Of a stretch of DNA of 64,000 nt, positions 6,503 to 47,791 are shown in pieces. The position numbers were made by a program, and so were the translations under genes. How positions within the stretch are numbered: position 1 is the first letter of the stretch; each line of letters opens with the position of its first letter. Below the pieces are notes generated by a model that was not told where the DNA came from, searched no databases, and saw nothing but the letters and a program-made list of their open reading frames with translations. Source of the DNA: Octopus sinensis (lineage: Eukaryota); NCBI RefSeq assembly GCF_006345805.1, contig NC_043020.1:2170001-2234000 (forward strand), read 5' to 3'.

Positions 6503-6782
6503 CAGGTGTGTGGTAAGTAGCTTGCTTACCAACCATATGGTTCCGGGTTCAGTCCCACTTGCGTGGCAAGTGTCTTCTGCTATAGCCTCGAGCTGACGAA
6601 AGCCTTGTGAGTGGATTTGGTAGACTGAAAACTGAAAGAAGCCCGTCGTTTATGTGTGTGTATGTTTGTATATCCGTGTTTTTCCCCCCACCATCGTTTC
6701 ACAACTTCACAACCGATGTTGGTGTGTTTACATCCCCGTAACTTGGCGTTTTGGTAAAAGAGAGAACGATAGAATTAGTACT
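6503..6782 (+). mobile_element. SINE family C, 3'-truncated
   Basis: Matches the full copy at 31383-31792 (GGTAAGTAGCTTGCTTACCAACC...GGATTTGGTAGAC...). Confidence 0.88.
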
Positions 6783-7312
6783 TCCAACCATCAAATATGG
6801 AGGAGGATCCGTTATGATCTGGGGGGCTATAACTTGGAAACCACCGGCCCAATGGTTTCCCTTCGTGGCAGAATTAATAGTCAAGATGATTTGAGCATTT
6901 CATCTGATCAAATTCAACCTTTCGTTGCGGAACTGTTTCCGGAGGGAAATGCAATCTTTCGGGATGATAATGCACTAATTCACTCAGCTAAAGTTGTTAC
7001 TGAATGGCACGAAGAACATTCTAGTGAAGTTAAACATCTTCTTTGGCCATCACAGACCCCAGATCTCAGTATTATTGAACATTTATGGTGCATTTTAGAA
7101 AAACAAGTAAGGAGTCGATATCCTCCACCATCATCACTACAAGAACTGGAGACTGTTTTAGCTGAAGAATTCAGCTAAATTATTTCCTATGGAAATAATT
7201 CAAACTGTGTACAAGTTCTTACCTCGTAGAATTCAAGCTGTAATTACAGCCAAATGCGGTCCTACCCGATATTAAAATAAATTTTAAGGTGTTTCCATTA
7301 TTTTGTCCAACT
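6783..7312 (+). mobile_element. Tc1-family transposase remnant (DDE domain) with right end
   Basis: YGGGSVMIWG...IFRDDNALIHSAKVVTEW...WPSQTPDLSIIEHLW...LQELE. There are 36 residues between the second catalytic D and the E. Confidence 0.9.
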
Positions 7313-13958: not shown

Positions 13959-14373
13959 TGTTACAAGACTACATATATAAACATGTATTATATGTGTATA
14001 TATATTTGCACGTGTATATATATGAGTGGGTTGTATATATATATTATAATATATTATATATATATGCTAAATACATGCAAACACGTATGTTTTGGTTTAC
14101 TGAATATATTTGTAATATTTACAATAAATTAGACAATATTTTGTTTTCATACGTTTCTTCTGATTTGTTTTTTTTTTTCTATAATTGTAACCTGACCTTC
14201 CTTCTTCCTTGCATATATATATACATACATACAAATATATATATATACATACACACATACATACCTACATACATACATATCTGTCTGTCTGTATGCATGC
14301 ATGTATCTGCGTATATGTGTATGTATGCATGCATGTATATATATAAAGTAATATAATATGAATTATATGTATG

Positions 14374-14410
<37 letters not shown>

Positions 14411-14413
<3 letters not shown>

Positions 14414-14893
14414 GAATACAATAAAAATGGTAAATAGAAAATTATTTACCATTTTTATTGTATTACCATGTGGATTCCTCATTCCATTACGATTACCCAG
14501 AAGGCGCGCATGGCAGAATTTTGGAGGGAAAATTTACGTTCCCAGTCGTTACTTGGTTTTAACATCTGCGCACTTCCCCCCACTATCTGATGTCGCTGGG
14601 TCAGAAGTGAGGGCTGGTGGCATTTGATAAAGCTATCGAATATAGCGCTGATGACGGAATTCAAACTCCCCTTTTTTTATATGTTTGTGATCCAGAAACA
14701 CGGTGTTCGCTATTAACGGTAAGTGACTGAATTCGTATATTTGCCACTCCGATTTTGTGTATGTGAGCCGCAAGGGCCTTCGTTTTTGGAATCTCCACTT
14801 ATAGAAATGGAAAAAACGGTCTTTGACTGCCATTTCTAATTCCTTCGGTATGAGGCGAAACAGCTTGCTGCTAGCCAACTTATTTTTCTTTAC
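14411..14893 (+). mobile_element. Short non-coding PLE/retrozyme-like insertion in (TA)n, with a 5' fold-back and a hammerhead ribozyme
   Basis: Unique ~480-bp segment between (TA)n runs. It has a perfect 22-bp inverted repeat at 14415-14436/14443-14464 and an internal hammerhead. Confidence 0.65.
14642..14713 (+). ncRNA. Type I hammerhead ribozyme
   Basis: Stem I is ATAGCG/CGCTAT. The core CTGATGA is at 14648-14654. Stem II is GGAATTCAAAC/GTTTGTGATCC, with two mismatches and a C-A closing mismatch. GAAA is at 14695-14698, followed by stem III CAC-G-GTG and predicted GUU cleavage after 14707. Confidence 0.8.
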
Positions 14894-14948
14894 TATATAT
14901 ATATAATATATATATTAATATATATATATATATATATATAATATATAG

Positions 14949-14980
<32 letters not shown>

Positions 14981-15171
14981 TGTATATATGTATATTAAAG
15001 AGAGAGAGCGTAATAGATAAATACATAGATAGATAGACAGACAGATAGATACACATATAAATAATTGCATATATAAACATATATTTATAGATATGCATAT
15101 ATATATATGCATATACACACACACTACACAACACATCGCACATATATATATATACTTATATATAGATATAT

Positions 15172-15206
<35 letters not shown>

Positions 15207-15222
15207 TGCATGTATATATATA

Positions 15223-15285
<63 letters not shown>

Positions 15286-15973
15286 ATATATATTATATAT
15301 ATATATACATGCATATATATGTATATACATATATATATACATGCACACACACTCACACACGCATGCATCTGTCCCATACTTGTTTTTTTCTTCTTCTCTT
15401 TGATCTTTCACCGATAAATCCTCCTTGTTTGATAACTTTAGCCGACGGCTGAAGAAAAACTCAATTCCAATATCTTATACGAATAGCCTTTCTTTATAGA
15501 AGAAATATTGCGTCGCCGCTTACACACTGTTGTTGTTCGCAGGCAATCGCTAAACGCTTACACTCGCTTTATGGATGATATCTGTATAAACATTATTTTT
15601 GTTTATCGGTTTATTCATCTATAAATAAAGCTCGTCTGTTTGATTGTAACCCGGTGCGCTTCTGTTAGGTAGATATGAATACAAACCTTCATATATATAT
15701 ATATATATATATAAATGTTTGTAATATATATATATATATATATAACAACATACACACAAAAATATATAGATAAATACGTATATATATTTATCTTTATATA
15801 TACATATATATATACAAACATTTATATATATATATAGCCCAAGCAGTTCTACTTCATTGCACACGCGCATTTATTAGAAAGATATGCGTATGTTCGTGTT
15901 ATCAGTTTAAGATTCTCTGCACGTATTTCTGCTATATCATTCCTTTACGCACACACACACACCATACACACTC

Positions 15974-17630: not shown

Positions 17631-20315
17631 ATTTATTGAAGATGATGGGAGGCCTTTCTAACCTAGATTACAAAAAACAATAACGGCCGGAAACCTTAGC
17701 TTTGAGACGGTAGGAATTCTTGGAGATAGGAAAGCGCGTGACAGAGGCGGTGGCGGTAGCGTTGGCGGCGGTGGCGGTGGCGGTGATGGTGGCGGTGACG
17801 GTGGTGGTGGTGGTGGGGTGGTTATTGTGATGGTGGGATGCAGTGTGGTGGGGGTTCACGGTGGTTGTGGTGATAGTGGTTATTTTGATGGGGCGATGGA
17901 GTGAAGTAGAGGTGATGGTGAGGTTTCTAGTGTCGGTGGTAATGCTGGTGATGGTAGTGGTTGTGGTGGTTGTCGCGGTGGCGGTGTTAGTGGTGGTTAT
18001 AATGGTGTTAATGGCCTGAGGGAGATTATCATGTTAAGCTTCTTGAAGTAAAATGGAGAAAGTTTTACTTATATTTCCAGATTTTTTTTAGTGTTGGTGT
18101 AGAAAGTTCTTTAAGCGCGACGATTTAATCTGTAAAGTCTGGAAATTAAGGAAATGTTGATAAAGAAATAGGGCGGAGAATTGTAGAATCTTTAGAACTT
18201 AGATAAAAAAAAATGTTCCATGAGGTGTCTGGTTACAGTATCTTTTGTTCTGAGTTTAAGTTCTGCCGAAATCTCCTTTGTTTTCCGTCCGTCTGGAATT
18301 GATAAAATAAATTACAGTCAAGTAGTTGAGTCGATTTAGAGCCCAGCTAAGCGGAATGCCTGCTGCAGCGAGTGTCGCTGGCCATTCTCTACAGCGACAC
18401 CATCAAGAATTTGGACCTGGAGATCTCCATTTCCAGCGACTTCGAGGGCCACCTCCCAGTGGTGTCAGGCGTCAACGAAGAACCCTCGACTACAACAAGA
18501 CGACCAAATTTTCTAAGGTCTGGGATCTCCCGCCCCTAATCCCTAGACTATCACCTAATCACCCTTACCCGTCTTGTTGCTTAACAACAACAACAACAAC
18601 AACAGCAACACCATCACGATCATGTCTGCAAGGCGTAGTTGAATACACCACTCATTTTTTTTTGGGGGGGTGCACCCTACTCCCCGATTTTCTGCTGCTT
18701 AATCGTTCACCTATTTTGCCCTCCTTTTTCTTTATTTCTTTGTAATTAAATTCTGATTTAATCTTCCTGTAAGTAAAACCAATTCTTTAATTGATTGTAA
18801 GCTTCCCACAAAATTTTGTGGAGTTGTGATTATGTTTGAAAACAATGTTTTGTCTTCAGCAGACTAAAAACACCGTGTAACACGATTTCTGTCCTTGGGG
18901 AGCAAATGTTATTTCCTATTTGTGTGCCCCTAGAAAGTATTATAGCTCGTGTTTATTTTTACATGAAAAAGTTCGATAGTGACTTAAAAGTTTCGGCTTG
19001 CTCGCCTTTTTCAGGTTGTATTTTACTCTGTTTTGTTTTTCGTTTTCATATAATTTTCATTTTCATATAATCTTCCATAAATATGGAAGAAATGCCGCTA
19101 AGCATTTTGCCCGGCTTGGTAACGATGTTGAGAGCTCGCCGCCTTATGTAAGATCATAAGAGATGGCAGTCTATTGGTTGAAGTATCCCCCTTCTTGTCT
19201 GAAGCCTTCAGATCGTAACACTGCAACACTGAATTGTAAACTATGACTGGGCGATTAAGCTCTCTTAATATTCCCTTTTGCACTGTAAACTGAAGAGCCT
19301 AATGACACGGGCTCCTACCGGACCGCGAATCGAACGCACGACTTTATGGTCGAAAGTTTATTTACATTGTCAATCGGTGACTCGCCTTCTCACGAGTAAA
19401 ATTTCATGCCACCGCAATCTGCATGCGAGAACTGTTACAGCTCGGTTTAGTGGTATATTTATATGTCTGCGCATGTGGTCCGCTGTTTGTGACTGTTGAC
19501 TGGCCGTTATTTTAGTTCATCATCATTGATTACTTTTGGTGGTCAAGTGGTTATTTTGCTCGAATCTGTTGATCGGGCCGCGGGTTTGCATTTTCTTTTA
19601 ATAATTTTATTGGGTTATATATTTACTGAACTTAAAATTAGCCATTTAATTAAAACTGATTTTTGGTAAGGTTTATTTTGTTGATTAGAAGACATGGCGT
19701 GTATTGCATTACGTTTACAAATATTAATCTCATGCTAGAATGATCTATGTGCGGTATTTGCTTTGATATTGGAAGAGTTTTTCTTTTTCCTTTTAAATTG
19801 ATCTGTTAAACTAATTAAAGTCATAAGGAGGTTAGGAGTTCCTCATTGAGTAAGTTTAAAGTTGCTTTAACGAACTTGTTTTTAATTTTGCTTTGGTCAA
19901 GAGTGAAGAGGATAAAGGTTTTTTTATGGGGTGATAATCGTCTGGTTTATTAGCTGTGTTAAGCTAAAGGTTTTAATTGTTTATTTTATTAGAGAATCTA
20001 GGAACGTATTATTTTAATTAAAAACCTTTAAAAGTGTTTCTTTATGTCTACATGGTGTTTTGGTTGAGGCTTGTTGATATGTTGCTTATTGATGATAACG
20101 ATTCTACCAGGCCACTGCCTTATAATACCAACATATATTGGTTTCAAAATTTTGGCACAAGGCCAGCAACTTCGGGTGGGGAGATAAGTCGTTTACGTCC
20201 ATCCCCAGTTCACAACTGGAACTGATTTTATCGACTCCGATTGGACGAAATGTAAAGTCAGCGTCGGTAGAATTTGGACTCAGAAAATAGACAAACGAAA
20301 AAGACGGAAATCATT

Positions 20316-20389
20316 TGGCCAGTATAGGGATGGAACCCATAACATTCGTGTTGTTAATACGACGCTCTAACCAACTGAGCTAACAGGCC
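20316..20389 (-). pseudogene. tRNA-Ile(AAT)-derived gene or pseudogene whose anticodon now reads AAC
   Basis: Minus strand GGCCTGTTAGCTCAGTTGGTTAGAGCGTCGTATTAACAACACGAATGTTATGGGTTCCATCCCTATACTGGCCA (74 nt) is a eukaryotic Ile-AAT body. It has a T-T acceptor-stem mismatch, an A-C anticodon-stem mismatch, and a B box GTTCCAT instead of GTTCGAT. Confidence 0.85.
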
Positions 20390-21041
20390 ACACTACGATA
20401 CTAACATATAATATCAGTATATACACAATACCAAGACACAATGCTGAAATTCAATACCAATTTTTGCCAATTTAACGATGCCATTACATTATAGCATTTC
20501 TATAAAACCAATTGTTTTATATCAAAAGTAATTGACATTACAGAAGAACAAAAAACAAAACGATTTTTTTAATTCTTTCTGAAATTTCGGTAAAAGACAA
20601 TTCTCTTCTTTTGTTTTATTTTGGTATTATTTTGTCTTTACTAATGTTGTTGTTATTGTTGTTGTTGTTGTGGCTGCTTTTGTGAAAGATTCTAACGAAT
20701 CGCTGGAATTAGTTCGCAACTTTACCGGAATCAATAAGTCTTTTACAGCTTCCTTGTTTGTTTTTGTAATCATCTTATGTTGTTTTTGCATGTTTTTTGT
20801 TTTTGTTTTTCATTCCTAGTATTTGTCTTCCATTTTACACTTGTCCTGATGTAATTCCTTCAACGAAGATACGTGTCTGTAGTATCTGAGTATTTGTGTC
20901 AATGTACACACACACACACACACAACACACACACACACACATACATACATACAAACATACATACATACATACATACAGACATACATACAACATACATACA
21001 TACAAACATACATACATACATACATACAGACATACATACAG

Positions 21042-24478: not shown

Positions 24479-24513
<35 letters not shown>

Positions 24514-24868
24514 ATAAAACGGTAAGATAACAAAAGAAAGAAAGAGACCTCAATATTATGTAAATAGAGGAAATTTATCTATACAATATGTTACATTACT
24601 CGGTAGTCAAGATAAAACTCTGAGTTTCAGATGCCGAAGTGGAAATCCACAACACCATCTCTTCGGTTATCTGGCTATTGAAAACGTTATGAAAAAATAC
24701 CGTTAAAAATGAAGGGAAATTACTCTGTTATAACTCTGCTTTGCCTGCGTACTTATACATCGCTCGCATTTTTCGTCATAAAAATTATATAAAAATACAT
24801 AAAAAATATATAAAAATATATAAAATCTCTTGGGACATAACACAGAAAGCATGTTCTATCCGTTTTCT

Positions 24869-25294
24869 TTAGGGGACCAAAAAACGTAACAGAAATTTAG
24901 TCACATGTGGGCATGATCCGAAAAGCTCTGTCCTTGTATTTAGACATGTGGTAGGGTCTAAGCTGCTTTTCCAGATAAGCCATCTCTCCATGTCGCATAA
25001 ACCGCACCTTCCGCTGCCGTTAGTGTAGGGCTTACATCTGGCCAAAATCTTCCATTGTATGTTATAATCGACACCTTTATCTCTTAAAGACCAAATATGA
25101 TTGGATAATTGTGTCGCTTTTCTTTTGTTCCAGTGCCTAAAGCTCAAAGTGTGGTTATTGAACCTGGCCTTGAAATTACCCTCTGTCAGGCCCACGTATT
25201 TCTTCGTCGAAACGGTGTCTTTAGTGGTTATAGAGTTTACGGTAGCTTCATATATGATGGTCTTGGACATGCAAGCTCCATTTAGCGGGCACAA
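24869..25294 (-). pseudogene. PLE GIY-YIG endonuclease domain; the upstream frame has a stop codon and a frameshift
   Basis: CPLNGAC...IIYEATV...YVGLTEGNFKARFNNH...LSNHIW...C.LC..E...LNTRTE..C.H. Confidence 0.9.
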
Positions 25295-25881
25295 TTCTTT
25301 ATTCCTGCATGAACAGCTGTTTTCTTCTTGTGTTTTTTGTATGGTATGATTGATTATGTTTTTAAAATTGGTAGTTAAAACTAAGACTAATTTTTAAATT
25401 GTGTCTATGAAGAGTTTCCTATAAGCATGGTTAACTGGAAAATGTCTATCTATCAGTGCTAGGAAATATTTACCTATATTGAAGGCCACCTCGGGTGAGT
25501 AAGGGGTCGTAAACCAGATGACCTTCCTATTTCTATTATTCCTTTTCCTACTGTTGGGCTGGTAATAGGTGTATATTTATTTTTTCGCTAAAACCACTAT
25601 CTTTTAAAGCTTTATTATAAACTGGGGCAACGCTATTGAAGATGTCCTCATTAGATGAGAGGCTAGAAGTCCTCTTACTAATATTTTAAACTAAATTTTT
25701 GAATACTATAGGGGGATGGCATGAACCTACATTAATATAACTTAGTCTATCATTGGGCTTCCTATAAGGCTTATAAATATTATTATTAAGATCTAAGGAA
25801 ACGTCTAAGAAATTGACATTGAAATTATAACAGAGTAATTTCCCTTCATTTTTAACGGTATTTTTTCATAACGTTTTCAAA

Positions 25882-25955
25882 TAGCCAGATAACCGAAGAG
25901 ATGGTGTTGTGGATTTCCACTTCGGCATCTGAAACTCAGAGTTTTATCTTGACTA
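25882..25955 (+). ncRNA. Hammerhead-like motif in the pLTR (sense-strand copy on the minus strand at about 24604-24677)
   Basis: TAGCCAGATAA-CCGAAGA-GATG...GTGGA-TT-TCCAC...CATC-T-GAAA-CTCAGAG-TT-TTATCTTGACTA. U4 is replaced by C and there is one extra nucleotide before GAAA. Confidence 0.65.
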
Positions 25956-25982
25956 CCGAGTAATGTAACATATTGTATATAT

Positions 25983-26027: not shown

Positions 26028-26830
26028 GGTGACCCAAAAGTAGGTTTACAGTTATCACGTAGGCACTTTAAATTTCTTTTAAAACATGTTATTATATTTA
26101 AATCTATATCTTACAATCATATTGTATGTGCACATCTCTGCACATGAAATGGACAATGTTTAATCTCTCGGATGCTCGAAATGTCCTCCTTCAACATTGC
26201 GAAATTCTTCAAACCTCTTCAGAACACTCTGACACTCAGTGCGGCCCAAATTCCGATCTCCATCAATTTCATTGAATGAGTCAGAGATGTAATCTTTTAA
26301 TTCATTTGTTGTTTTGAGATTTTTCTCATAGACCTTGTTCTTTATAACACCCTCAAAAAAGAAATCCATTGGTATCAGATCAGGTGAACGTGGTGGCCAT
26401 TCCATCCTACCCCATCTTCTGAACCAACGCTGTGGAAAGGCTTGGTTAAGGAAGTCTCTGGGTCGTTTTCCAAAAGACCATGTACCAGTCGTGAACGGAA
26501 AGGTTTTAAATTCAGCTTATGCATTAGGCGCTGCAATGATGTTCTTGTATAGATAGTTCTAGAGAAGCACGTCGTGTGGAATTCTTTGGATTGTTCACAA
26601 ATGTCATAGCCATTAACATCTCATTTTTTTCAGTCAAAGAAGTCTGGTATCAAATTTATTCCTTATGCGATAAATTATCTGGCGTGAAGGTGGAGCGAGT
26701 GTGAAAGGCCTCTTGCCATGCTGTGTGCACTTGCTCGGCATTTTCAGACTTCCAGTACGGTTTTTAGTATCCACTTTCTTTGCTCTTGATTTAAATTGTT
26801 TGCCATTGCTCACACTTAACAGTACCTGTA
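26023..26830 (-). mobile_element. Tc1/mariner-superfamily remnant (DDxD type, rosa/maT-like), internally deleted
   Basis: TACAGGGTG terminus next to (TA)n; peptide EWPPRSPDLIPMDFF..GVIKNKVY...GGHFE. Confidence 0.85.
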
Positions 26831-43489: not shown

Positions 43490-44000
43490 TGTTTACTTCC
43501 ATTCTGATGTTTCTGGTGCAGCGACCTCCTACTACAACAAGGCTCTAGTAGCCAGCAAATTTAAAGACCGCATCATTTATTTTCCCGGCCCTAACACCAC
43601 AAAAGATAGCGCTGACAAATAGTCATTTGGTTTGTTTTCCATAGATTATTGAGTAAACATTTTACTCAAAACCACAGATATAGTAAAATATTAAAAAGGC
43701 ATAACTTAAGGTTCACGATCAGTGTTGCACCTAATATAACAAATATATATAAGTGAGTACTTCCCAGTACCCCGTTAGAGGCAAAATGTTCAGGTAAGGT
43801 TTACATTTAGTGCCCAGGGAATGGTCAGTGTAACATAGAAATCGTCTTCTACGAAGCAGAGGAGGTGTCGTCCAGTAACAACTGATCGGAACCCATAAGA
43901 AGAACCCTTTTAAAGCCAGGCTGAATAATCATAAATCCACTTTTAAAATGTAAGAGAAAAGCACGGTTACAAAGTAAGCTACATATGCCTATTAAAAAAG
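43490..44000 (+). mobile_element. Old Penelope-like remnant (thumb to GIY-YIG)
   Basis: Broken frames AATSYYNKALVASKF, VIWF, KHFTQNHRYSKILKRHNL, CPGNGQCNIEIVFYEA and EEPFKARLNNHKSTF are collinear with the element at 24869-25820. Confidence 0.75.
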
Positions 44001-46485: not shown

Positions 46486-46839
46486 AATTATCGATAGAGT
46501 TAAACCACTACCCAACCTGGAACGAGTTAGACCATAAATTAAGTTTAATTATTTTCGTTAACGACGGGATGTACTTACCAAGAATATTTTTGCTAAGTAT
46601 ACCGATATCCGAGTTGGAAGTGCAGATAAACGGTGAGTTGGGTTATTGAAGAATTTAGGCTTGTGATCCTTAAAGGCCAAAAGGGGTTGTTTTGGAGATA
46701 AAGGCTGAATTTTCATTTGTAAGTTATATTTTTCCATAATTTTCTTAGCCTCTAGGTTAGCCTTTCTGACAGCATTTTTACTAGTAGTCTTCTATATTTT
46801 TTGTATTTCCTTTCTGAGTAGCTTTAGGTAAAAATATCT

Positions 46840-47140
46840 TTGTTGTTTGTTCCTTCTTGAGCCACGGGTGGCTCATAAGGGCCGGTTTCCCGGCGCATAG
46901 GTTCCCCACCTGGACGGGACGCCGGTCCATTGCAGGTGAGCTGCTAGATGCAGGAGGAAAGAGTGAGAGAAAGTCGTGGTGAAAGAGTCAGCAGAAGCTT
47001 CGCCATTACCTTCTGCCGGAGCCGCGTGGAGCTTAGGTGTTTCGCTCACAAACACACACATTGTCCGGTCTGAGATTTGAACCCGTGATCCATCGACCGT
47101 GAGTCCGCTGCTCTAACCACTAGGCCATGTGTCTCCACAC
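46840..47140 (-). mobile_element. SINE family A head with tail type 2
   Basis: Homologous to 35662-35970; TSD AGGTAAAAAT. Confidence 0.9.
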
Positions 47141-47791
47141 AGGTAAAAATCTGTGTTTAAGTGATACAGGTTACCAGTTTTATCCGATTAAACAAGAACG
47201 TCATCCCTGCTGTTTATTTCTTTGGTAATATTATGCAGAGATTTTAGATGTTTCTTTCTTAAGGGTAAACAATGGAATTTAATCTTCTTAATAGTAGACC
47301 CGAAGCCCTCTTCAAACTCTTAGGTTAGGAGGAGGATTATTTCCCGATTTGAACAATTTACTAAATTCCTAATATTGCTCATTGGAGGCTGGCTTGATAT
47401 CCTTATTATCGAAGAAGAAAGCTTGCCATCTGATACGGTTGATGGATGAGTTAACCTTATTGATGACTTGCTTCAGGAGAACGTTTCTTGGGGGAATAAG
47501 TATATTCTTGAGGGAGGCGTTAATATTAATGATCTCCATTTGCAGTAATTATTCTGGTTGCAGGTTTATCCAAAGAAAGCCTGGTGCATATGTATGAATG
47601 TTCAAGTTATAGGAAAGATCCAGGGAAACGATTACAAGGTGGCCAAATGTGACAGAAGTGTCCTAGAAATCAGGGGTCACACTTGTGTGGGAGTTAATTA
47701 CGGTTAGAAGCGAGACGTATTTTGGAGAACATAGGAAAAAATTGAAAATGGAGACAAACGCTGAAGATGTTATTAAATTATTTATATCTTC

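What the first reader, a model, noticed from the sequence alone, without database searches (positions are those of the whole stretch)
14411..14893. Non-coding ~480-bp insert in (TA)n with an intact-core hammerhead ribozyme and a perfect 5' hairpin
Seen: a unique segment between (TA)n runs that starts with a perfect 22-bp inverted repeat (6-nt loop). It contains ATAGCG-CTGATGA-[stem II]-GAAA-CACGGTG-TT-CGCTAT, with all conserved single-stranded core nucleotides and a perfect 6-bp stem I; the stem II closing pair is a C-A mismatch. No RT or endonuclease coding was recognised. Known: PLEs and non-autonomous retrozymes carry type I hammerheads, and PLE 5' ends are often inverted. Inference: this is a solo pLTR or a retrozyme-like element. 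It might still self-cleave any plus-strand transcript running through it.
Basis: partly seen in the sequence, partly recalled or inferred. Interest (0 to 1): 0.72.

Follow-up and report, generated by a model that had tools for sequence, protein, structure and literature searches.

The report
Truncated hammerhead retrozyme copy, Penelope-style
This is one shortened copy of a young, protein-free 555-base repeat that carries a conserved hammerhead-ribozyme fold with an unusual mismatched pair and is likely pasted into TA microsatellites by a Penelope-type jumping gene; the perfect hairpin at its start is only a by-product of this one insertion.

Summary
Observation confirmed; the reading needs correcting. 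The insert is a 5'-truncated copy (463 of 555 nt) of a young, non-coding tandem family dispersed in (TA)n (92 ribozyme matches genome-wide, 0 control). The 22-bp hairpin occurs only at this locus: it is a short inverted second arm. Of 66 insertions mapped, 39 are two-armed; 30 pair end site S1 with end site S2 about 120 nt downstream, and none uses one site twice. This is the Penelope 'tail', also seen in intact Hydra-clade elements of this genome. No copy runs into an ORF, so it is not a solo pLTR. The hammerhead covaries across sister families (7 pairs changed on both sides). Its 10.1-11.1 position is never Watson-Crick in them (C-A or A-A), so the mismatch is inherited, not decay. A 13-nt block before S2 matches a Hydra-type pLTR (1 of 1000 shuffles), but wider alignments were not significant, so the partner is unproven. 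Cleavage and circles are untested. This single-ribozyme copy cannot release a monomer. Verdict: new family of known non-LTR retrozymes; the scan already noted this kind on other DNA of this genome.

The parts
14336..14410 (.). (TA)n target run, left
14409..14436 (-). Short inverted second arm: unit positions 7-46 reverse-complemented, with a 12-nt internal deletion; its outer end lies in the S2 region
   Evidence: alignment to natural monomer L003:1501-2055
14415..14464 (+). 22-bp perfect hairpin formed by the inverted arm against the start of the forward arm; private to this locus
   Evidence: junction found only in L001 among all fetched loci
14437..14899 (+). Forward arm: unit positions 1-463 of the 555-nt monomer, 4 substitutions against L003; lacks positions 464-555
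14642..14713 (+). Type I hammerhead fold: 6-bp helix I, intact core, C-A at 10.1-11.1, 40-nt helix II region, near-palindromic helix III, predicted GUU cut after 14707
14802..14855 (+). Start of the ~200-nt 3' region shared with sister families (hairpin 14802-14838 and following conserved block); likely recognition region for the borrowed RT (inferred)
14894..14899 (+). End site S1: TATATA of the unit merges into the target (TA)n
14894..15339 (.). (TA)n target run, right

Best explanation
The insert is a 5'-truncated, two-armed copy of a young 555-nt non-coding tandem repeat with a conserved type I hammerhead fold (a non-LTR retrozyme), likely copied into (TA)n by a borrowed Penelope-like RT-endonuclease, probably of the Hydra clade. 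Inferred steps: arrays with two or more units are transcribed. The hammerheads would cut, most likely as dimers and slowly, and monomers would be ligated to circles. The PLE protein would nick both strands of a TA run, one nicked end priming at S1 (unit position ~457-463) and the other at S2 (~120 nt downstream). The two cDNAs stop at variable points and are joined head to head. Here the S1 arm copied 463 nt and the S2-region arm about 40 nt, which made the hairpin. With one ribozyme and 92 nt missing, this copy cannot release a monomer.
For: Family: 112 matches from 40 scored of 634 candidates; 92 ribozyme-pattern matches, 0 reversed control; 555-nt period, arrays of up to about 5 units. Ends: of 66 insertions, 39 are two-armed (30 S1+S2, 9 with one odd end, 0 S1+S1, 0 S2+S2) and 27 one-armed (21 S1, 6 S2); 82 of 96 S1/S2 ends are followed by TA-rich flank. 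An autonomous Hydra family with intact 717-aa ORFs shows the same pattern: 8 of 13 two-armed copies S1+S2, none the same site twice. Units of one insertion differ by 0.83%, against 2.70% between insertions; 149 variants are shared by all units of an insertion, so both arms come from one source. 5' ends are not enriched at the cut site (2 of 105 in a 9-nt window, about 1.7 expected), so linear cut monomers are not the template. Ribozyme: 93.9% of cells paired, 7 pairs with two-sided change including C3-G8 to U3-A8, slid controls 28-39%. The sense monomer folded as a circle has z -4.6 (antisense -1.8), and the ribozyme-constrained fold is 3.3 kcal/mol above the minimum. A 13-nt block ending 4-5 nt before S2 is identical in a Hydra-type pLTR that sits directly before a Hydra ORF (1 of 1000 shuffles). 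Literature: retrozymes as non-autonomous PLE derivatives (10.64898/2026.07.22.740005); two RT start sites make the tail (PMC11167929); Hydra inserts in (TA)n (10.1101/2021.04.23.441226).
Against: No cleavage or circle is shown. Rfam does not recognise the motif. The 10.1-11.1 pair, normally highly conserved, is unpaired in 14 of 14 aligned variants. In one published test only 1 of 9 predicted frog retrozyme dimers cleaved (10.64898/2026.07.22.740005). The partner is unproven: local alignment of the 3' region with Hydra C, Hydra F and a Neptune-type end gave p 0.21-0.94, a profile of 13 sister 3' regions gave p 0.22-0.90, and the 13-nt block was noticed before it was tested. 13 variants are shared by only some units of an array, which one circular template copied in one pass does not predict; assembly polishing or conversion could also cause them. 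The 66 loci were top hits and hand-picked places, not a random sample. The window's inverted junction was not checked against reads.
Confidence: 0.78

Rival explanations
1. Same element and same Penelope-type insertion, but the template is an uncut linear multimer; the hammerhead of this family cuts rarely or not at all, and no circle is needed.
For: Non-Watson-Crick 10.1-11.1, GUU site and weak helix III all predict slow cutting (GUU being slower than GUC is recalled). 13 variants shared by subsets of adjacent units. In the one reconstituted PLE, ribozyme mutants did not affect insertion and unprocessed RNA was the main substrate (PMC11167929).
Against: Compensatory changes in helix I, distal helix II and C3-G8 across families 73-85% identical show selection on the catalytic fold. 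An axolotl retrozyme with a U-U mismatch at this position cleaves and makes circles (PMC7229834). Copying only from linear arrays would tend to shorten them, yet arrays of about 5 near-identical units exist (inference).
Confidence: 0.35
2. The mobilising partner is not a Hydra element but another PLE clade of this genome (Neptune-type or one not sampled).
For: No significant overall similarity to Hydra C or F ends. A young Neptune-type family with open ORFs also ends in (TA)n. Only a few PLE families were sampled.
Against: The only exact end match found is to a Hydra-type pLTR (13 nt at the equivalent place; the Neptune-type end gave 8 nt, 567 of 1000 shuffles). Hydra C shares a long helix II, a 7-nt near-palindromic helix III and a GUU site; Hydra F has A-A at 10.1-11.1 (read).
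Confidence: 0.25
3. A solo pLTR or 3' fragment of an autonomous PLE.
For: Type I hammerhead, inverted 5' end, tail and (TA)n target are all PLE traits (10.1101/2021.04.23.441226). True pLTR fragments of that kind exist in this window (24512-25976).
Against: Copies wrap round into the previous 555-nt unit instead of entering an ORF in 66 insertions. PLE protein hits occur in 10 of 152 loci and, judged from coordinates, are separated by (TA)n, lie downstream or are on the other strand.
Confidence: 0.04
4. Ordinary satellite spread by DNA recombination, with fold-back arms being assembly artefacts.
For: Tandem units; long (TA)n flanks are hard to assemble; this junction was not checked in reads.
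Against: Fixed, strand-specific 3' ends, scattered 5' ends, strict S1+S2 pairing, the same pattern in coding Hydra copies, and a covarying RNA structure.
Confidence: 0.03

Closest known systems
Metazoan non-LTR retrozymes (PMC7229834; bioRxiv 10.64898/2026.07.22.740005)
   Same: Non-coding tandem units, one type I hammerhead per unit, GC below 45% (0.41 here), dispersed monomers to multimers, co-occurrence with PLEs, short palindromic helix III suited to dimers. The axolotl HHR_Amex2 also has a mismatch at the base of helix II.
   Different: Unit 555 nt (150-450 bp in PMC7229834; 51-972 bp in the 2026 preprint). The mismatch is C-A or A-A rather than U-U; 40-nt helix II region; GUU site. Two-armed insertions with two fixed ends in (TA)n are not described in the parts read. 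RNA circles and cleavage are not shown here.
Hydra-clade Penelope-like elements (10.1101/2021.04.23.441226 = PMC8557442)
   Same: (TA)n target, hammerhead, 5' truncation, inverted arm, tail on one end. A local family has the DKT motif, CxCx5C linker and no CCHH, and shows the same end pairing.
   Different: The finding encodes no protein; its tail is about 120 nt (30-40 bp in the paper, 67 nt in local Hydra C); overall sequence similarity to sampled pLTRs is not significant apart from short blocks.
PAc Poseidon element reconstituted in vitro (PMC11167929)
   Same: Two internal RT start sites define the tail; both target strands are cut and extended; AT-rich target.
   Different: There the start sites were not homologous to the cut DNA and did not differ between strands in vitro. 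Here S1 carries TATATA matching the target, and two-armed copies never use one site twice.
Non-autonomous Chlamys elements such as MRC1 (10.1101/2021.04.23.441226)
   Same: Non-coding, multi-copy head-to-tail PLE derivatives sharing 3' ends with partners.
   Different: Green-lineage, mostly without hammerheads; 3' similarity to the partner is clear there and limited to short blocks here.

Membership tests
Metazoan non-LTR retrozyme | Short non-coding unit in head-to-tail tandem copies | tested here: met
   555-nt period, arrays to about 5 units; no stop-free frame of 110 aa or more within the insert
Metazoan non-LTR retrozyme | [quoted passage not shown] | tested here: met
   Met for the family (51 full motifs in 26 insertions; 92 genome-wide). 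The window copy itself has only one.
Metazoan non-LTR retrozyme | No LTR and no linked ORF | tested here: met
   PBS and PPT were not searched for separately
Metazoan non-LTR retrozyme | Self-cleavage of the RNA | not testable with these tools
   Only covariation and folding
Metazoan non-LTR retrozyme | Expression as monomeric circular RNA | tested here: inconclusive
   No run on record as RNA. A run guessed to be RNA holds the unit as one 585-nt contig closing on itself, which a circle, a tandem transcript or DNA could all give.
Canonical hammerhead ribozyme | Core C3-U4-G5-A6-N7-G8-A9, G12-A13-A14, A15.1-U16.1, H17 and three helices | tested here: met
Canonical hammerhead ribozyme | Watson-Crick pair at 10.1-11.1 | tested here: not met
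   C-A in 88 and A-A in 4 of 92; no Watson-Crick pair in 50 of 50 sister matches. Natural U-U exceptions are in print (PMC3088659, PMC7229834).
pLTR of an autonomous PLE | Flanks an RT-GIY-YIG ORF in cis | tested here: not met
   0 of 66 insertions; 152 loci screened with three local PLE proteins
PLE-type insertion | 5' truncation, inverted arm, tail on one end, microsatellite target | tested here: met
PLE-type insertion | Target-site duplication | tested here: inconclusive
   Cannot be read inside (TA)n flanks
Hydra-mobilised element | 3' end shared with a Hydra pLTR | tested here: inconclusive
   13-nt block at S2, 1 of 1000 shuffles, post hoc; alignment and profile tests not significant

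The most novel reading that the evidence does not exclude
A clade of 520-650-nt retrozymes keeps a working but throttled hammerhead (purine or C-A mismatch closing helix II, GUU site, dimer-only helix III) so that stable RNA circles persist. A Hydra-type RT-endonuclease, acting as an asymmetric pair, primes the two nicked strands of a TA repeat at two obligatory different sites on that circle and writes each two-armed array in one event.
Probability: 0.25. Interest if true: 0.68.

Novelty: new member of a known kind. Interest (0 to 1): 0.4.

Why it matters
How animal retrozymes are copied into genomes is proposed but not shown in the papers read (PMC7229834 names PLEs a strong candidate; the 2026 preprint calls the mechanism open). 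This family is young, has two sharply mapped start sites with a strict pairing rule, and sits in a genome with intact Hydra ORFs that leave the same footprint. That makes a direct in vitro test possible. A C-A or A-A at 10.1-11.1 kept across families with otherwise compensatory change would widen the natural hammerhead consensus and may be one reason profile searches miss such motifs. The single copy flagged is itself a dead end, and the scan has already noted the same kind of element several times in this genome.

Tried and rejected
Rfam: no hammerhead at gathering score or at E<=10; the miRNA hits on the hairpin are far below their cut-offs and were rejected. Hairpin as a functional or terminal repeat of the element: rejected, private junction. 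Partner search by motif pattern: 80 matches; the 30 loci fetched were further non-coding sister families or chance neighbours, none ORF-linked in cis; L085 looked linked but its Hydra ORF is on the other strand beyond a TA run. No blastn match of three retrozyme units to 20 Hydra loci. Matches in 30 GIY-YIG loci were separate insertions or weak opposite-strand matches (output was cut). Alignment and profile tests against PLE ends not significant. Pfam found no family on two full Hydra ORFs and only a sub-threshold GIY-YIG on the window fragment. Sequencing runs: no RNA holder listed. Contigs of runs only guessed to be RNA cover the unit and Hydra C; no silent control stretch was laid, so this is not used as evidence of expression. 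Excess of 5' ends at the cut site: not found. Circle versus linear multimer: not resolved. The regex tally failed and was replaced. One search used a mis-indexed structure and is superseded. Paper searches for C-A/A-A at 10.1-11.1, for GUU rates and for cephalopod retrozymes found nothing specific. A paper on PLE hammerhead variants cleaving as dimers (Lunse et al. 2017, recalled) was not listed and may cover such mismatches; supplements of the papers were not read.

Full report
Observation. A strict descriptor matched 0 of 2000 shuffles of the insert, a relaxed one 2 of 2000. Rfam lists no hammerhead here. The segment is not unique: 112 matches came from 40 scored of 634 first-look candidates, and a ribozyme pattern matched 92 places with 0 for the reversed control.

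What it is. The copies form head-to-tail arrays of a 555-nt unit (natural monomer L003:1501-2055). The window holds unit positions 1-463 (14437-14899, 4 substitutions) preceded by positions 7-46 reversed, with a 12-nt deletion. The hairpin is this short inverted arm lying against the forward arm; its junction was found only at this locus among all loci fetched. I mapped 66 distinct insertions: 26 from the best hits after dropping 4 overlapping loci, and 40 places picked by hand. They are not a random sample. Upstream of a unit there is another unit, an inverted arm, (TA)n or unique flank. Three local PLE proteins hit 10 of 152 loci of this and sister families; by coordinates these hits are beyond a TA run, downstream or on the other strand. 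The element is therefore non-autonomous and not a pLTR.

Insertion footprint. 3' ends fall at two sites: S1 (scored as positions 455-463, where the unit's TATATA merges with the target) and S2 (scored as 15-46 of the next unit, mostly 27). Of 39 two-armed insertions, 30 pair S1 with S2, 9 have one odd end, and none uses the same site twice; one end (L224) was set by hand. Of 27 one-armed insertions 21 end at S1 and 6 at S2. Several odd ends lie at other TA-like words of the unit (208, 246, 304), which suggests short pairing between the nicked TA strand and the RNA (inference). The window also holds a two-armed fragment of a young autonomous PLE (24512-25976) with the Hydra hallmarks given in 10.1101/2021.04.23.441226 (passages read): CxCx5C linker, no CCHH, and DKT in intact 717-aa copies. 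Its two-armed copies pair two ends 67 nt apart in 8 of 13 cases and never repeat one. [quoted passage not shown]

Template. Units within an insertion differ at 0.83% of sites (248 of 30,005; opposite arms 0.85%) against 2.70% between insertions; 149 variants are shared by all covering units, 138 are single and 13 are shared by a subset. Both arms thus derive from one source. 5' ends show no excess at the cut site (2 of 105) and arms run through it, so the template is a circle or an uncut multimer. The 13 subset variants count mildly against one circle copied in a single pass, but polishing or conversion could produce them. I could not decide between the two.

The ribozyme. Sister families homologous along the whole unit were found: 526 nt (85% identical), 644 nt (73%) and 588 nt (66%). 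In 14 distinct hammerheads from this family and its closer sisters, 93.9% of cells pair, 7 of 19 pairs change on both sides (helix I, distal helix II, C3-G8 to U3-A8), and slid controls give 28-39% (related rows, so not a probability). The 10.1-11.1 position is the only one never paired. It is C-A in 88 and A-A in 4 of 92 family matches, and A-A 46, A-C 2, G-G 1, G-A 1 in 50 sister matches (both counted by eye; the patterns allowed any base there). It is A-A in every motif parsed from the 12 fetched loci of the 644-nt family and in the pLTR of a second autonomous Hydra family (read). The 588-nt family has an ordinary G-C. So the mismatch is inherited, not decay. Natural U-U at this position is in print (PMC3088659 section 8; PMC7229834 section 15, where dimers cleave well). 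I did not find C-A or A-A or in the passages read, but coverage was thin and supplements were not read. Helix III is predicted to form only between two copies, as proposed for PLE ribozymes in PMC4209133 (parts 1-2 of 4). Folded as a circle the sense monomer is more stable than shuffles (z -4.6, 40 shuffles) and forms helix I. Activity itself is untested; only 1 of 9 predicted frog dimers cleaved in 10.64898/2026.07.22.740005 (parts 1-3 of 5 read).

Partner. All sister families share a ~200-nt 3' region holding S1 and S2. No sampled PLE carries it whole: blastn, local alignment (p 0.21-0.94) and a profile (p 0.22-0.90) were negative. A 13-nt block ending 4-5 nt before S2 is identical in a Hydra-C-like pLTR lying directly before a broken Hydra ORF (L150; 1 of 1000 shuffles, against 45, 836 and 567 of 1000 for Hydra C, Hydra F and the Neptune-type end). 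A pattern of this block plus an upstream 9-mer matched 865 places (control 2); of the 30 fetched, 27 were Hydra-C-like ends and 3 the 526-nt sister family. This was noticed first and tested afterwards, so Hydra is the likeliest partner but not proven.

RNA. No run is on record as RNA. One run guessed to be RNA, from coded organism B, holds the whole unit as a 585-nt contig that closes on itself (555 plus overlap), with no change listed at the mismatch. A circle, a tandem transcript or DNA would all give this, so it is inconclusive.

Comparison and verdict. It works like, and meets the sequence criteria of, a metazoan non-LTR retrozyme (PMC7229834, passages and sections 15 and 17 read); cleavage and circles could not be tested. 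Searches for cephalopod or Hydra-linked retrozymes listed no paper on them. The host group is named octopus in earlier scan notes; I did not test that. Those notes describe the same kind of two-armed retrozyme in other families of this genome; sequence look-ups of this family returned nothing. I had recorded the two end sites before the look-up; the 'two-armed' wording and the within-array test follow their lead. Shown: family, structure of the copy, end pairing, absence of a linked ORF, covariation, inherited mismatch. Inferred: cleavage, circle, twin priming, Hydra partner. New member of a known kind; interest 0.4.

Noticed in passing
window 24512-25976: Two-armed 3' fragment of a young autonomous Hydra-clade PLE in (TA)n, with a hammerhead in each arm (CCGAAGA core, long helix II, GUU site). 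Intact 717-aa copies exist elsewhere (L111-L113); 150 scored of 21,544 candidates were 97-100% identical.
   Followed up: yes
L145-L147: Second Hydra family (721-727 aa, about 47% identical at the N-terminus) whose pLTR hammerhead has a 2-bp helix II closed by an A-A mismatch.
   Followed up: partly
L042:1501-2088; L257; L236; L081-L110: Further non-coding hammerhead tandem families (588, 644, 526 nt and others) sharing the 3' region. The 644-nt family has an 81-nt AT-rich helix II insert (157 pattern matches); the 526-nt family has U3-A8 or U3-G8 cores.
   Followed up: partly
L165-L194: Young Neptune-type PLE family (label from recalled motifs; CxxC inside the GIY-YIG) with open ORFs up to 883 aa and ends in (TA)n; my descriptor found no canonical hammerhead at its 3' end.
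   Followed up: partly
L002, L012, L017, L057, L073, L198, L202, L203, L219, L230 flanks: Many unrelated hammerhead motifs with palindromic helix III lie in the flanks; different PLE-type elements pile up in the same TA runs.
   Followed up: no
window 43600-43950 and 46490-47550: Old, broken Hydra-like ORF relics.
   Followed up: no
window 20315-20390 (-): tRNA-Val(AAC)-like gene or tRNA-derived repeat.
   Followed up: no
window 6636-7178 (+) and 26160-26516 (-): Frames resembling Tc1/mariner transposase fragments (resemblance recalled, not tested).
   Followed up: no
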